A stretch of 64,000 nucleotides of DNA from contig NC_042999.1 in NCBI RefSeq assembly GCF_006345805.1, positions 17,608,001-17,672,000 on the forward strand, given 5' to 3'. A program made the translations under genes and the position numbers. Shown piece by piece: positions 7,640 through 62,143 of this stretch. This DNA is from Octopus sinensis. Taxonomy: Eukaryota. The notes under the pieces were generated by a model. That model was given only the letters and a program-made list of their open reading frames with translations, searched no databases and had not been told where the DNA came from. Position 1 is the stretch's first letter; the number at the start of each line of letters is the position of its first letter.

Positions 7640-7857
7640 AGAAAGTGTGTCATTCAATATGTGACCGCGTGTGTATCGTTGGAGATTTTCTTCTCCGTTT
7701 TCCCTTCCTTGGACTTTTCTATTTTCTATGTTTCTGACGAAGAGCTCCCCTCGAAACGTTAAATCATCCTTCTTTCTTTCGTTTCCTGAGCGTCCAATAA
7801 CACTATACTTGTTCTACGTCCTCGCGTTGTTGTGTTTTCATGTTTTGATTAACTTTA
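7640..7857 (+). mobile_element. Penelope-like terminal-repeat fragment in (TA)n
   Basis: Flanked by (TA)n on both sides; contains hammerhead motif 7730-7764; shares ttcctgagcg motif with the 26856-27055 block. Confidence 0.6.
7730..7764 (+). ncRNA. Minimal type I hammerhead ribozyme motif
   Basis: gttt-CTGACGA-a-gag(ctccc)ctc-GAAAC-GTT-aaat: helix I gttt/aaat, helix II gag/ctc, palindromic AACGTT at helix III. Confidence 0.6.
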
Positions 7858-10050: not shown

Positions 10051-11564
10051 TTTTTGAGATGCATCGATAAAAAGATTTATTTTGCAACGCCTCACATAAC
10101 GATACTTTGTTCCAATCTTCTCCCATCAAGCCAGTTCAAGCGTAAACCACTTAAGGACCTTTTAAGAAACATGAAAGATTTTAACAGACAGGCAACTTGC
10201 CAGTAACTAAAAGCACTTGGCTTCGAATACGATCTCAACGAGAGATATCTCTATTTTAAGTTCTTAAGTATATGCAATTTCCTCATACGGAATTCTTTCG
10301 TCAATTATATTGAACAATATTTTGCAATTTGTACTGCCCAGCATTAAAAGTGAATGCGATATAAAATTAAAAAATAAAATAACCAAACGCAACAAAAATT
10401 CAAGAATGAACAATGAAATAAAGGGGCATATTTGTTTTCATCGTCTAACAGCCGATCGTTCAATTATGATGAGTGATTTCGACGTGTCCTATTATGTCAA
10501 TATTACTTTTGAATCGCAATTTATTACCTTGTCAGTTATTTAAAAACTTGTTGATATATTTATAAGTGAGTATAAGTGTGTGTATGAATGTGCATAATTG
10601 AGCGTGTGTGTGTGTGTGTGGTGTGTGTGTGTGTGTGTGTGTTTCACTTTCAAAACCTTGATAAGTTATTAGACAGCAAACGCCTAAGTCACGCATTTCA
10701 ATCAAAATACGTGCAAATTGATGTTGAAGTGTATTAAATAATTTCTCTTTAAAACCAATTACAGAAGTAACTAAACACCTACGGATTCCCTCTAAATCTT
10801 AAAAATATAATCAAGCTAAATTCTAATATTTTTACTATGCGGTACACAAAATATGTTCATGTAGCCCTTTACAAGTTGATAATTATTTACTTGCTTAAAT
10901 ATGTAGGGCTAATAAAGTAAGAATAGAATGAGAAAACACCTATTTATTAAATCACATTAACTCTCTTATTGTACACAAATGCCTTATTCATATAGATTAT
11001 TCCATGCAGTATTATTTTAGCATTTGCTAAGTAATATATCTTCTAAGTTTCGCACAATTATATTTAAGTAAGAGTAAATGCAACGCAAGATATAAAAATA
11101 TATGTCTTGAACAAGAAGAAATGGAGATAAATGTTCATGGCTTAGAATTCATTCCTAAGAACGTGTGAAGATATTAGAAGGCTCCAGGTGTGAATGCGGA
11201 TAAAGACTTGCTTAAGCGTCAACTAACACTATCATGAAGTTATTTCAACTCACTTCTTATTCCGTGCTATTAAAATATCTTGGAGAAAGAAACTTTACAT
11301 AATGTTCCATGTGATTCAACTATAATGGTTGTAAAAGGTTAGTACTTTACAGAGAGATCAAGAAACACGTAACAAGTCCATATACGATTTTGTATGACCC
11401 CACAGCAAGGACAAGGATCGACAAATCTCACAGTTATAATTCCTTTGGATACTAAACTAAACCATGCACCATATTCGATAAAGTCGTCGTCGTCGTCGTC
11501 GTCGTCATCACCATCAAAATCATCATCATCATCAACAACACTACCATCACTACAATATTCTCTC

Positions 11565-12147
11565 CTATTTCTTTACTACCCTCAAGGGGCTAAACACAGA
11601 GATGACATACAAGGAGAGACAAGCGGATTATGTCGATTATATCGACCCCAGTGCGCAACTGGTACTTATTTAATCAACCCCGAAAAGATGAAAGGAAATG
11701 TCGGCCTCAGTGGAATTTGAACTCAGAACGTAAAGACAGACGAAATACCTATTTGTTACTACCCACGAGGGGCTAAACATAAAATGGACAAACAAGGACA
11801 GACAAACGGATTAAGTCGATTATATCGACCCCAGTGCGCAACTGGTACTTATTTAATCGACCCCGAAAGGATGAAAGACAAAGTCGGCCTCAGCGGAATT
11901 TGAACTCAGAACGTAGCGGAAGATAAATACCTATTTCTTTACTACCCACAAGGGAACAAACAAGGACAGGCAAACGGATTAACTCGATTATATCGACCCC
12001 AGTGCGCAACTGGTACTTATTTAATCGACCCCGAAAGGTTGAAAGGCAAGTCGACCTCGGCGGAATTTGAACTCAGAACGTAACGGCAGACGAAATACTG
12101 CTAAGTATTTCGCCCGGAGTGCTAACGTTTCTGCCAGCTCGCTGCCT
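11565..12147 (-). mobile_element. Family-A SINE, trimeric form
   Basis: One head-bearing unit plus two headless ~185-bp units. Perfect 13-bp TSD tacaatattctct at 11551-11563 and 12148-12160. Confidence 0.92.
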
Positions 12148-27055: not shown

Positions 27056-28037
27056 CTATCAGATAGATAGATAGAAAGATATTCAACGTTGCCTACGTAA
27101 TATGAAATACACATTTACATAAACACATATGTAATGCATACATACAAGCACATAAATATATTTACACATATACATATATACAGCACCATATATGTGCACA
27201 TGCACAAATTCATGTAAGATGGCTTCTTTAAAAGTGAGTTTCTGAAGGTAGTTTTCATTGGTTTTGTTTTTTTGTAAGATTATACCCACTTAACCAATCA
27301 TAAATCATTCAATGTTATTTTTTAGTTACAAAGATTTGGAACACCTTGTAATGCGCAACGACGTGTCATTCGGAATGGATTTGAAGAACTGCTTTTCAAT
27401 AACGTAGCATTTTTACCTTAATGAACAAGGTGATATTGAGAGGAACACTGTCAATACAAATACCAACCAAGCCAAGACTTTTATGTCATGTAACACGATC
27501 TAAATTGTTTTTGCTTTCGTATGTTCTTTGCGTTTAAATAAAGACTTCGCCTGCAGTTATGACAAAGCAAATGAAATTCTTATTTTTGGCAATATGAAAT
27601 ATTTAACTACTGCGGCTAAGCTCATCCAAACTAAAACCTCTTTTTAATTTATGTAACCGGAATGTTGCTATTTGCCTGAAAGTCATGTCTCTCCTGAAAT
27701 ACTAGACGGTATTTTGCAGCCATTACCTACTGCCCAAAACCTACCTTGGAGACGAAGAAAAAAAGTAAACGAAGCTATATCACAGTGATTGCGATCCCTA
27801 ACTCTCACACAAGTGTTATATTCAACTAACGAAGGATATTCATCCCACTGGTTCAAGTAATGGTATACACAGCTTAAAAATATTTTAAACTCATATTTTG
27901 AAGATGAATTTCACAGAAGTTACATTATTTACATTTGTCCTCATCTTGTTTGTTGTTAATACAACGTTTCGGCTGATAAACCCTACAGACACCTTGAGGT
28001 GTCTTGGGGAGATTAACTACTACGCTATGATCCCCCC

Positions 28038-28110
28038 GGGCATATGCCGTAGTGGTTCAGAGCTCGGGCTACTAACCCCAAGATTCCGAGTTCGATTTCA
28101 AGCAGTGACC
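28038..28110 (+). pseudogene. tRNA-derived sequence (Pol III A/B-box-like), not a functional tRNA
   Basis: A-box-like TGCCGTAGTGG, anticodon-like arm ggg-CT-ACT-AA-ccc, B-box-like GAGTTCGATTTC; imperfect acceptor stem. Confidence 0.6.
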
Positions 28111-28138
28111 TGAACAATAATAATAATAATAATAATAA

Positions 28139-28177
<39 letters not shown>

Positions 28178-28253
28178 GATGATGCTGATGATGATGATAA
28201 TAACATCGAAAAGTACCTTAGGAATGAGAACTCAGATTCGAAATTTCCCCAAG

Positions 28254-28297
28254 ACACCTGATGAAGGCTGGAGGGTATATCAGCCGAAACGTTGTGT
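28254..28297 (+). ncRNA. Minimal type I hammerhead ribozyme motif
   Basis: acac-CTGATGA-a-ggctg(gagggtatat)cagcc-GAAAC-GTT-gtgt: perfect helix I (acac/gtgt) and helix II (ggctg/cagcc), AACGTT palindrome. Confidence 0.75.
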
Positions 28298-28896
28298 TAA
28301 CAATAAACACAATGAGGACAATTATCCGTCGAATGTAAATAATGTAAATAATATACATAATTCCTCATGTCTTAAATATAGAACCGTACGAATTTCACAG
28401 GTAGTTCAAATTATCATTAAATAATTAAAAGATATTTTAAAGTAATAAATGATCACCCTCTTTCATGTTAAGCATTAATATTGATATCTCTGATGAATGC
28501 ATAAATACATATGAGTTTTAATACATGCTTGTGAATGGCTACTGTAAACCTGAAAAAGCAAATGTAAATGTCTAGAATGCACGAAGTAATAACATTACAA
28601 AAGCTACTCTCGAGGAGAGGGAACTTAGCACAAAAATCAATCCGTATTGTAGAATAGAACAAATAAATATCATCAACAGGTGTAATCTCATTTCAAAGTA
28701 ATCCAGTTTCACCACACTTTAAAATTTACACAAATACACAGCGATGATGTGGTCCTGATACTGAAGAGGTGAGCCATTCTTGAAACACTCCGACTGAAAA
28801 CTACTAAACTGTTTCAATAGCCACAGTGAAGTAAATGTTTCTTTGTAAATGAAAGCGTATGTATAGATAAATGTTACACAAAACATTTGTATCTCA

Positions 28897-29575
28897 TTAC
28901 TCTTTTACTCTTTTACTTGTTTCAGTCATTTGACTGCGGCCATGCTGGAAACACCGCCTTTAGTCGAGCAATCGACCCCGGACTTATTCTTTGTAAGCCC
29001 AGTACGTACTTATTCTATCAGTCTCTTGCCGAACCGCTAAATGACGGAGACGTAAACCAACACACACACACCACACACACACACACACACTTATATTATA
29101 TAATATATATATATATATAATATATATATATAATAATAAATATTAGGGAATATATCCATTTACAGGGAAAAAAATCAGATTTAGGATTAAATCCAATTTA
29201 TAGTAAAATATTATAAAATTTATTTGAGACAAAACCACTATTTTGCAAAACAAACAAGGAAAGACTTAATCATACATAAAATTTAATAAATAGTCAAATT
29301 TTTGACTATTTATTAAATTTAATGTATTGATTAAGTCTTTCCTTGTTTGTTTTGCAAAATCAGTGGTTGTGTCTCAAATAATATTTTATATTATATATAT
29401 AATACATATATACGACAGGCTTCTTTCAGTTTCCGTCTACCAAATACACTAACAAAGCATTGGTCGGCCCGGGGCTATAGCAGAAGACACTTGCCCAAGA
29501 TGCCACGCAGTGGGACTGAACCCGGAAACATGTGGTTCGTAAGCAAGCTACCTACCACACAGCCACTCCTGCGCC
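28897..29575 (-). mobile_element. Family-B SINE interrupted by nested insertion
   Basis: 3' part 28897-29090 and 5' part 29405-29575; nested element sits in its internal microsatellite. Confidence 0.88.
29131..29395. mobile_element. Family-C Penelope-like fold-back element (~80-bp palindrome arms)
   Basis: Arms 29220-29298 and 29301-29381; homologous to 53360-53630 and 62848-63010. Confidence 0.8.
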
Positions 29576-56934: not shown

Positions 56935-57053
56935 CATATATCTATATCTATATATTTATATATATACATATACAATATATATATATACATATATATTATA
57001 TATATAATACTATATAATATACATATTATAATAATATATACATATATATATAT

Positions 57054-57085
<32 letters not shown>

Positions 57086-58868
57086 CATATATATAGAATA
57101 TATATACCTATATTATAATTACATATATATATACATATATATTAATATATATATAATATATATCATATATATATATATATATTATATAATATATATTATA
57201 CATATATATACATATATATATTAATACATATATATATATACACATATATATATATATACATATATATATATACACATATATATATAGACATATATATATA
57301 CACACATATATATATACATATATATAACATATATATACACATATATATATATACACATATATATATTACACAATATATATATACACATATAATATATACA
57401 CATATATATATATACACACATATATATATACACTAATATATATACACACATATTATATACACATATATATATACACATATATATATATACACATATATAT
57501 ATATATATATACATATATACATATATATATACATATATATATATTACATATATACATATATATATATACATATATATATACATATATATAGATACACATA
57601 TATATATATATATATACATATTATATATACATATATATATATACATATATACATATATATTATACATATATATATATACATATATATATATACATATATA
57701 TCATATATATATAGATACATATATATACATATATATATATACATATATTACATATATATATATTACATATATATAACATATATATATATATATTATATAT
57801 ATACATATATATATATACATATATATATACATATATATATATAACATATATATATATATACATATATATTATACATTATATATATACATATTATATATAC
57901 ATATATATATATTATACATATATATATACATATATATATACATATATATATATACATATATATAACATATATATATATATATAATATATATATACATATA
58001 TAATACATATATATATATACATATATATATACACATAATATATACATATATATATACATATATATAATATACATATATATATATACATATATATATATAC
58101 ATATATATATACATATATATATATACATATATATATACATACATATATATATAATACATTATATATATATATACATATATATATACACATATATATATAC
58201 ACATATATATATATACACATATATTACATATATATATATACAATATATATATATACATATATATATAACATATATATATACACATATATATATACAACAT
58301 ATATATATACACATATATATATACACATATATATATACACATATATATATACACATATATATATACATATATATTATACACATATATATAACATATATAT
58401 ATATACATATATATATACACATATATATATACAATATATATACACATATATATACACATATATATATACATATATATTACATAGATATATACACATAATA
58501 TATATACATATATATATACACATATATATATATAACATATAATACATATATATATACTATATATATATACATATATATACACATATAATACATATATATA
58601 TACATATATATATATACATATATATATATACATATATATATACATATATATATATATATACATATATATATTATACATATATATACATATATATATATAC
58701 ATATATACATATATATATATATATCATATATATACATATATATTATTAATATACATATATAGATATATATATATATATTACATATATATACATATATATA
58801 CAATATATACATATATATAATATATACATATATATACATATATATAACATATATATACATATATATAC

Positions 58869-58901
<33 letters not shown>

Positions 58902-59162
58902 CACTATATATAATATACATATATATACATATATATATATATATATAGACACATAATATACATATATATATATATATACATATATATTATATATACATAT
59001 ATATACACATATATATACACATATATATACATATATATATATATATACAATATATATACATATAATACATAATATATATATACATATATATACATATATA
59101 TAACATATATATACATATATATACATATATATACCACATATATATATGTACATATATATAAC

Positions 59163-59194
<32 letters not shown>

Positions 59195-61080
59195 TACATA
59201 TACATATATATTATACATATATATTACACATATATATAATTATACATATATATACACTATATATATATATACATATACACATATATATTATACATATATA
59301 TACATATATATATATATACATATTAACATATTATATATATACATATATATACATATGTATATATACATATATAGATACTATATATATATACATATATATC
59401 TACATATATATACTATATATATACAATATATATACACATATATATATACATATATACATACATATAATATACACATATATATACATACATATATATACAC
59501 ATATATATACATACATATATATACATCTATACATACATATATATACATATATACACATATATATACTATATATACATATATTACATATATATATATCTAA
59601 CATATACATATATATATATATCTACACATATATATAGGCCACATATATATACATATACATATTATATGCAATATATATACATATATCATATATATATACA
59701 TATATATATTATATAACATATATTATAGATACATATATATATAGATATACATATATATATACATATATATAATAACATATATACATATATACATATATAT
59801 ATATAACAATATCTACATATATATATATATAATATATATAGCATAATTATCTACATATATATATATATATAATACATATATATATACACATATCGTATAT
59901 ATATATACATATATATATCTATATACACATATATATACACATATAGATATACACATATATATATAGTATATACACATATATATATTATACACATATATAT
60001 ATATACACATAATATACATATACATAGCATATATATACATATATATATACTATATATATACATAATATATACATATATATAGATACATATACATATATAT
60101 ATACATATATATATACATACAAATATATATAATACACATATATATATAACACAATATATATATATATATATATACATATATCACATACATATATATACAT
60201 ACATATACATATATATACATATATATATACAATATATATATATATACATATATATACATATATATATATATATACATATATATCTACATACATATATAAT
60301 ATACATTATATACATACATATATATATATATATACATATATATACATACATATATATATACCTACATATATACATACGTATATATATACATACATATAAT
60401 ACATACGTATATATATACATACATATATATACATACGTAGAATATAACATACATATATTACATACTTATATATATACATACATATATTATATACATATAT
60501 ATATCATACATATAATATATATACATATATATACCTACATATATATATATATACATATATATACATATATATACATACATATATATATATACATATAGCT
60601 ATCATACATATATAGATATACATAATACATACATATATAATATATACATATATACATTACATATATATATATATACATATATACATACATATATATATAT
60701 TATCATAACATCATATATACATACATATATATATATATATACATATATACATACATATTATACATATACATATATACATACTATATACATACATATACAT
60801 AATTTATATATAATATTCTACATATAATACATACATATATCTATATATACATATATACATACATATATATATATAATATAATATATACATACATATATCC
60901 ATACATATACATATATATCATACATCTATACTATACATATATATATATACATATATACATACATTATATATATATATATACATATATATATACATATATA
61001 TTATATATATATCTACCTATATATATATATATATTACATATATATATATATATACATATATATTATCCTTATATATATAC

Positions 61081-61114
<34 letters not shown>

Positions 61115-61116
61115 CA

Positions 61117-61152
<36 letters not shown>

Positions 61153-61417
61153 CATATATATATACACATATATATATATTATATACATACATATATATAT
61201 ATATACATATATATATACATATATTATATACATATAATATATATACATATATATATCATATATATTTATATACATATATATATATACACATATATATATA
61301 TATATATTTATATACATAATATATATACACATATATATATATATATATATACATATATATATACACATATATATATATATTACATATATATACACATATA
61401 ATATATATATTATATAC

Positions 61418-61448
<31 letters not shown>

Positions 61449-61860
61449 CATATATAATATATATATACATATAATATACATTCACATATACTATATATAT
61501 AACACACTTATATATATATAACACACATATATATATATACATATATATATATATACATATACACTATATTATATATACATATATATACATATATATATAT
61601 ACATATATATACATATATATATATACATATATATACATATATATATATATCATATATATATATAATATATATATATTACATATATATACATATATATATA
61701 CATATATATACATATATATATATACATATATATACATATATATATATATATACAATATATACATATTATATATTATATATACATATATATACATATATTA
61801 TATATATATACACTATATACATATTATATACATATATATACATATATATATATAATATAC

Positions 61861-61898
<38 letters not shown>

Positions 61899-62096
61899 CA
61901 TTATATACATATATATATACATATAATACATATATATATATATATACAATCTATACATATATATATATATATACATATATATCTTACATATATACTACTA
62001 TATATACATATATATACATTATATACATATATATATACATATATATACATATATATACATATATATATATATATATACATATATACATATATATAC

Positions 62097-62129
<33 letters not shown>

Positions 62130-62143
62130 CATATATACATATA
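56935..62143. repeat. 5.2-kb degenerate (TA)n/(TACA)n simple-sequence block
   Basis: Continuous ATAT/ATAC repeats, nearly G-free on the plus strand. Confidence 0.95.

What the first reader, a model, noticed from the sequence alone, without database searches (positions are those of the whole stretch)
27890..28385. Composite non-coding element: tRNA-like Pol III cassette, (AAT)n and hammerhead ribozyme inside inverted repeats
Seen: a tRNA-like segment (28038-28110), then (AAT)n, then an intact hammerhead motif (28254-28297) in the same orientation. The whole is bracketed by ~120-140-bp diverged inverted repeats; the left arm carries a decayed antisense hammerhead (GAAACGTT kept, CTGATGA lost). 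Known: Penelope-like element (PLE) terminal repeats carry minimal hammerheads and often occur as inverted partial copies; SINEs use tRNA-derived promoters. Inference: this could be a SINE-like, Pol III-driven, self-cleaving RNA mobilised by a Penelope RT, an architecture I do not recognise as described. Alternatively a short SINE simply landed inside a PLE remnant.
Basis: partly seen in the sequence, partly recalled or inferred. Interest (0 to 1): 0.8.

Follow-up and report, generated by a model that had tools for sequence, protein, structure and literature searches.

The report
Penelope retrotransposon with tRNA-derived promoter
This stretch is the short end piece of a Penelope-type jumping gene present in thousands of copies; unusually, that jumping gene carries a tRNA-derived segment that likely served as its promoter, so its whole protein-coding unit may have been copied by RNA polymerase III, the enzyme normally used for small RNAs.

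Summary
The motifs are real, but they are not a SINE inside a Penelope remnant. The tRNA-like head, (AAT)n and minimal hammerhead are the terminal repeat (pLTR plus tail) of an autonomous Penelope-like element (PLE). The head lies about 29 nt after the ORF stop in 27 of 30 ORF-3' loci, and the hammerhead body runs in frame into the ORF start in 18 of 30 ORF-5' loci; L295 is a natural full-length copy. The window copy is one insertion: a forward pLTR plus an inverted partial copy, with an 11-bp target duplication. Family-wide, 40 of 43 two-armed insertions have the PLE tail on one arm only. New: the tRNA-Arg-like head likely was a Pol III promoter. 60 of 66 copies reaching it start at its 5' edge, it does not fold like a tRNA, and the 2.65-kb unit has no TTTT shared among copies (0.31/kb versus about 3-4/kb in most other PLEs; none of 31 relatives is T4-free throughout). 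No RNA evidence was obtained; the family is old and broken. New variant of a known kind.

The parts
27906..27916 (+). left target-site duplication (13 bp with one mismatch: 27904-27916)
   Evidence: identical to 28390-28400; TSDs in 28 of 40 two-armed family insertions vs 4% of swapped controls
27920..28014 (-). inverted, internally deleted copy of the hammerhead/ORF-start body, ending at the short 3' site (no tail); hammerhead core decayed
28013..28037 (-). inverted piece of the head's first ~22 nt and the head-to-head junction
   Evidence: direct reading; same junction type in many copies
28038..28112 (+). tRNA-derived head, closest to host tRNA-Arg(TCT) among those sampled; part of the PLE pLTR; inferred Pol III type 2 promoter
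   Evidence: 47-50 of ~72 identities to L263; sits ~29 nt after the ORF stop in 27 of 30 loci
28045..28055 (+). A-box-like motif; this copy differs from most copies at head position +10
   Evidence: box consensus recalled
28089..28099 (+). B-box-like motif; this copy has T where most copies have the box's final C
   Evidence: box consensus recalled
28113..28199 (+). (AAT/AAC/GAT)n microsatellite of variable length; often a landing site for other elements
28224..28387 (+). 5' end of the PLE ORF (inferred ATG 28224), open through the hammerhead
   Evidence: frame continues into the PLE N-terminus in ORF-5' loci; similar N-terminus in relative P0003
28253..28298 (+). minimal type I hammerhead, predicted dimer-dependent, predicted cut after 28293
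   Evidence: motif and fold; class described in PMC4209133; activity untested
28355..28387 (+). PLE 'tail' between the short and long 3' ends (inferred two RT initiation sites; left limit approximate)
   Evidence: bimodal 3' ends; PMC11167929
28390..28400 (+). right target-site duplication

Best explanation
The window holds one ORF-less insertion of the terminal repeat of an autonomous Penelope-like retrotransposon, and the tRNA-derived segment in that repeat likely was the element's RNA polymerase III promoter. Shown: unit order is head, (AAT)n, ORF start with hammerhead, ORF, stop, 29-nt spacer, next head; insertions carry TSDs, inverted 5' arms and two 3' ends. Inferred: Pol III started a few bases before the head's +1 and, meeting no TTTT, read through the 2.65-kb unit into the next repeat. 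The PLE protein nicked both target strands and primed cDNA at the two internal sites downstream of the uncut hammerhead. Priming in the first repeat (or on short RNAs from solo repeats) gave the abundant ~330-nt SINE-sized copies; two cDNAs joined head to head gave the inverted structure seen here. The protein may have come from a different, capped RNA; only the template needs to be Pol III-made.
For: PLE identity: 27 of 30; 18 of 30; L295 full length; L143 ORF vs L091 PLE ORF, E 8e-43; 1665 relatives with RT domains. PLE integration: tail on exactly one arm in 40 of 43, either arm may be the long one; TSD score >=9 in 28 of 40 vs 4%. Promoter: 60 of 66 copies reaching head +3 start at -29..+3, 24 of 29 single-armed ones; full-length L295 and ORF-bearing L196, L197 start at the head (L202 is the same copy as L295); 20-mer counts fall 1.7-fold from hammerhead to head but 5-fold from head to ORF end; head folds no better than shuffles (z -0.51 and +1.47; host tRNA -2.61). 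Terminator absence: 23 T4 runs in 73 kb from 50 loci, none shared by >=12% of copies, 0 T4 and 13 T3 in 2634 columns (0.33/kb in 30 further, partly overlapping loci); near-full ORFs of other G000 PLE families 3.4-4.3/kb; null from their codon usage P(0)=0.012; 29 of 31 relatives have T4 between stop and hammerhead, and the other two have 9 and 11 in the ORF; 24 of 29 host tRNA genes have T>=4 within 30 nt, 14 exactly T4.
Against: No transcript, 5' end or Pol III occupancy data. One lineage only, so one event. 3 of 51 relatives of similar T content have zero T4 over 1.0-1.9 kb of ORF, including two of the closer ones, and several short G000 PLE fragments of 350-990 nt have 0-1. Shuffling the family's own codons shows no extra depletion (P 0.16-0.71) and the TTT deficit is not significant (p 0.09). 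A and B boxes are not better conserved than neighbouring columns. Some ORF-bearing copies extend upstream of the head (L193, L194, L195), and genome-wide counts put upstream extension nearer 20% than the 7% of the sample. A short palindrome at the head's 5' edge could favour junctions there. An uncapped 2.6-kb Pol III RNA is a poor mRNA (recalled).
Confidence: 0.6

Rival explanations
1. Ordinary Pol II-driven PLE whose pLTR holds a passively captured tRNA or SINE fragment; 5' ends pile up at the head because the small palindrome there stops RT or anneals two cDNAs, and the missing TTTT is chance.
For: D. virilis Penelope uses a LINE-like Inr/DPE internal promoter (PMC2377424); palindrome at the junction; zero-T4 ORF stretches occur in 3 of 51 relatives.
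Against: 24 of 29 single-armed copies also start there; head has no stable fold; T4 absent from ORF and pLTR together, unlike all 31 relatives.
Confidence: 0.22
2. The head is a Pol III promoter that makes only short SINE-like RNAs from solo repeats, while the ORF is made and copied from Pol II RNA.
For: Short copies outnumber ORF-bearing ones about fivefold; solves the translation problem.
Against: No subfamily of short copies; does not explain a T4-free ORF or full-length copies starting at the head.
Confidence: 0.12
3. The tRNA-like segment is an RNA processing signal (RNase P cut at +1) in a Pol II transcript.
For: Many 5' ends fall at -2..+3 (25 of 86).
Against: 17 of 86 keep a 3-7 nt leader; no cloverleaf; does not explain T4 loss.
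Confidence: 0.04
4. An independent SINE inserted into a PLE remnant at this locus.
For: 6 of 86 head loci have no body nearby.
Against: Several of those six run into other elements inside the AAT run, one starts the body and breaks off; no TSD seen around the head alone, while one brackets the whole composite; head fixed behind the ORF stop.
Confidence: 0.02

Closest known systems
Penelope/Poseidon PLEs, e.g. PAc of Anolis (PMC11167929, main text read)
   Same: RT + C-terminal GIY-YIG-like ORF, hammerhead overlapping the ORF start, two 3' ends inside the ORF start, uncut RNA as template
   Different: No tRNA-derived segment or Pol III promoter described; here the unit lacks T4 and starts at a tRNA-like head
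D. virilis Penelope (PMC2377424, abstract and one passage)
   Same: Internal promoter in the pLTR drives the downstream ORF
   Different: LINE-like Inr/DPE promoter with an intron, not A/B boxes
Truncated PLE ends with dual opposite-strand minimal hammerheads (PMC4209133, PMC8557442, passages)
   Same: Exactly the window's layout: inverted 5'-truncated copy, tail on one end
   Different: tRNA-like head not reported in the passages read
Schistosome SMalpha/Sjalpha SINE-like repeats (PMC6765202, passages; primary paper not held)
   Same: Pol III promoter followed by a hammerhead
   Different: Non-coding tandem repeats that depend on cleavage; here part of a coding PLE, dispersed, inferred uncut template
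Animal non-LTR retrozymes (10.64898/2026.07.22.740005, parts 1-3 of 5; PMC7761336, passages)
   Same: Short hammerhead repeats derived from PLE pLTRs
   Different: Defined as tandem arrays; these copies are solo or inverted with TSDs

Membership tests
EN+ Penelope-like element | Single ORF with PLE-type RT and GIY-YIG endonuclease | tested here: met
   L143 551-aa frame matches L091 PLE ORF (E 8e-43, RT part); relatives carry PF00078, some PF01541. L143 itself had no Pfam hit at E 0.1; its GIY-YIG motif is read by eye
EN+ Penelope-like element | pLTR-ORF-pLTR or partial tandem layout | tested here: met
   L295, L297, L303, L312, L168
EN+ Penelope-like element | Minimal hammerhead in the pLTR | tested here: met
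   (core intact in 27 of 45 short, 13 of 21 ORF-linked copies)
EN+ Penelope-like element | Inverted 5' copies and 30-40 nt tail at one end | tested here: met
   40 of 43
Poseidon clade | Placement in an RT tree with reference sequences | not tested
   Label rests on likeness to PAc layout and recalled domain features
tRNA-derived SINE | tRNA-related head with A and B boxes | tested here: met
tRNA-derived SINE | Non-autonomous lineage distinct from its partner | tested here: not met
   Head is part of the autonomous unit; no diagnostic sites
tRNA-derived SINE | Pol III transcription | not testable with these tools
   Indirect only
Non-LTR retrozyme | Tandem arrays of hammerhead units | tested here: not met
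   Copies are solo or inverted; rare direct pairs include flanking DNA (L036/L037)
Non-LTR retrozyme | Self-cleavage and circular RNA | not testable with these tools
   No raw RNA reads

The most novel reading that the evidence does not exclude
An autonomous, protein-coding retrotransposon swapped its Pol II promoter for a captured tRNA-Arg gene, purged every Pol III terminator from 2.65 kb, and thereby spawned thousands of SINE-sized copies from its own terminal repeat: a SINE born inside its partner, and a Pol III-transcribed retrotransposon ORF.
Probability: 0.5. Interest if true: 0.8.

Novelty: new variant of a known kind. Interest (0 to 1): 0.62.

Why it matters
If true, it shows that a coding retrotransposon can be propagated from a Pol III template, gives a direct route from an autonomous element to a SINE-like family, and offers a sequence test (tRNA head plus T4-free unit) to find others. 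Separately, the one-long-one-short rule with either arm long is genomic support for priming both target strands at two sites, as seen in vitro for PAc. Annotation tools would likely split this family into a SINE and a PLE.

Tried and rejected
ARAGORN and Rfam found nothing at the locus. GIY-YIG search gave other PLE families whose repeats do not match the body. No sister family among the top 30 loci found with P0086. No PDB match. No relative in viral contigs. No tRNA-like head seen in relatives from metagenomes and MAG contaminants (ARAGORN on 47 loci; box scans), but these are only 27-46% identical; DNA of the 54-68% relatives could not be fetched. Sequencing runs: no RNA holder listed; four guessed-RNA contig sets cover the repeat and the ORF but cannot show expression, strand or ends, so they are not used. 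A simple fold-back model (original arm always long) was rejected: among two-armed copies with the sense leader the forward arm was long in 5 and short in 7. The automatic TSD test missed the window's own TSD because the left arm was over-extended. Rows dropped: L110-L112 as duplicates of L109 and L105 as the other arm of L104; L001, L031, L037, L053; 14 refetched loci. Earlier-findings look-ups were empty.

Full report
Observation. The region holds, on the + strand, a tRNA-like head (28038-28112), an AAT/GAT run (28113-28199) and a minimal type I hammerhead (28253-28298). An inverted copy of the hammerhead region lies at 27920-28014 followed by an inverted piece of the head. An exact 11-bp direct repeat (27906-27916, 28390-28400) brackets all of it. 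ARAGORN and Rfam call nothing here. The window lies in G000, 2.72 Gb; I took it for a cephalopod from recalled repeat content, which no call tested.

It is a repeat family. Exact 20-mers occur 6231 times (hammerhead), 3719 (head) and 742 (ORF 3' end), reversed controls 0 for each. From the 1225 exact hits of a head 30-mer I examined 90 of the first 100 listed, all on contig C1; 86 remained after removing duplicates. 74 of 86 have the hammerhead body downstream, 6 only on an inverted arm, 6 none. Other elements often sit inside the AAT run.

It is the end of an autonomous PLE. Some copies continue upstream into a reading frame resembling a PLE C-terminus. Of 30 loci picked by that ORF end, 27 have the head within 150 nt and 19 have head and body. 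Of 30 loci picked by the ORF 5' part, 18 have the body directly upstream in sense, in frame. L295 is a natural head-body-ORF-head-body copy with a unit of about 2652 nt. The longest open frame seen, 551 aa in L143, matches another G000 PLE ORF at E 8e-43 and has 1665 relatives at E<=1e-20; relative P0003 keeps a similar hammerhead-overlapping N-terminus. This is the layout of Anolis PAc, whose ORF starts in the hammerhead and whose RT primes at two sites further down, using uncut RNA (PMC11167929). Body copies differ 6-8% from the commonest letter per column and no intact ORF was seen, so the family is old. Its DNA is also in contig sets of four other coded organisms.

Integration marks. 3' ends fall in two groups about 30-40 nt apart (87 loci with the window). 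Of 43 two-armed insertions with both arms reaching them, 40 have one long and one short end (22 versus 18 by arm; p 3e-9); the single long-long case is the window copy, whose left arm was over-extended by the aligner and is short by direct reading. 28 of 40 two-armed insertions have a flanking direct repeat scoring >=9, against 4% of swapped flanks. Inverted arms, one-sided tails and paired opposite-strand minimal hammerheads are described PLE features (PMC8557442; PMC4209133). Because either arm can be long, I infer two cDNAs primed on the two target strands and joined head to head.

The head. Among 15 distinct host tRNAs of six isotypes sampled, tRNA-Arg(TCT) fits best, 47-50 of about 72. 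It does not fold better than shuffles. 60 of the 66 copies that reach +3 start between -29 and +3 (two of them extend a little into the spacer), including 24 of 29 single-armed ones; 6 of 86 run into the ORF. In 30 hammerhead-picked arms, 7 start at the head edge, 6 inside it, 1 upstream, 10 end at the AAT run and 6 were scored as starting in the body. No site separates short from ORF-linked copies. The window copy has a change in each box and is probably not a working promoter.

No terminator. Pol III stops at T runs (recalled); 24 of 29 host tRNA genes have one within 30 nt, 14 of exactly four T. Across 50 loci and 73 kb of the family's sense strand there are 0.31 T4 runs per kb, none shared by 12% of copies, and no T4 in 2634 columns. 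Near-full ORFs of other G000 PLEs with the same T content have 3.4-4.3 per kb, short fragments 0-9.6. Among 94 outside relatives the median is 3.8; of 51 with 19-25% T, 3 have none over 1.0-1.9 kb. Between stop and hammerhead 29 of 31 relatives have T4, and the other two have many in the ORF. A null from other families' codon usage gives P(0)=0.012 for the 551-aa part. Against: own-codon shuffles show no extra depletion, the TTT deficit is not significant, boxes are not better conserved than their neighbours, and this is one lineage.

Mechanism. Shown: unit order, 3' ends, TSDs, 5' pile-up, T4 absence. Inferred: Pol III initiation near head +1, read-through of the unit, priming at the two sites on uncut RNA, short copies from priming in the first repeat or from solo repeats, and protein possibly made from another RNA. 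Confidence 0.95 for the solo-pLTR identity and 0.6 for the whole Pol III model.

Known context and novelty. Pol III promoter plus hammerhead is known in schistosome SINE-like repeats (PMC6765202 passages); pLTR-derived non-autonomous repeats are known (10.64898/2026.07.22.740005; PMC7761336); Penelope's promoter is LINE-like (PMC2377424). Passages of two cephalopod repeat papers did not mention this family (PMC13282606, PMC8967140). Ten searches listed no paper whose title or abstract start describes a PLE with a tRNA-derived pLTR; three returned nothing. Subscription journals, Repbase, Dfam and supplements were not seen, so the family may already be catalogued. Verdict: new variant of a known kind, interest 0.62.

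Noticed in passing
window 7655-7850: Terminal repeat of a second, T-rich PLE-like family with a minimal hammerhead at 7734; 2725 first-look candidates, flanked by TA repeats; one locus (L326) has a PLE ORF end next to it on the opposite strand.
   Followed up: partly
L091-L097: Intact 775-883 aa PLE frames of other families; L091-L094 are about 99% alike, suggesting recent activity.
   Followed up: partly
L002, L026, L041, L125, L005, L028, L055, L117 and others: At least three other elements repeatedly sit inside this family's AAT run; two look like LINE 3' ends (R4/Dong label recalled).
   Followed up: partly
window 29215-29386: Long near-perfect palindrome (33 nt arms 100%, 27 nt arms 96%), MITE-like.
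   Followed up: no
window 11564-12098: Three tandem copies of a 183-bp SINE-like unit.
   Followed up: no
window 56936-62143: 5.2-kb degenerate (AT)n tract, possibly an assembly artefact.
   Followed up: no
L423-L441: Animal PLE sequences lie in contigs of prokaryote MAGs, likely host contamination.
   Followed up: no
L279: Cluster of seven tRNA-Cys genes within 3 kb.
   Followed up: no
window 62659 (- strand): Weak hammerhead-core-like motif from the pattern scan, not validated.
   Followed up: no
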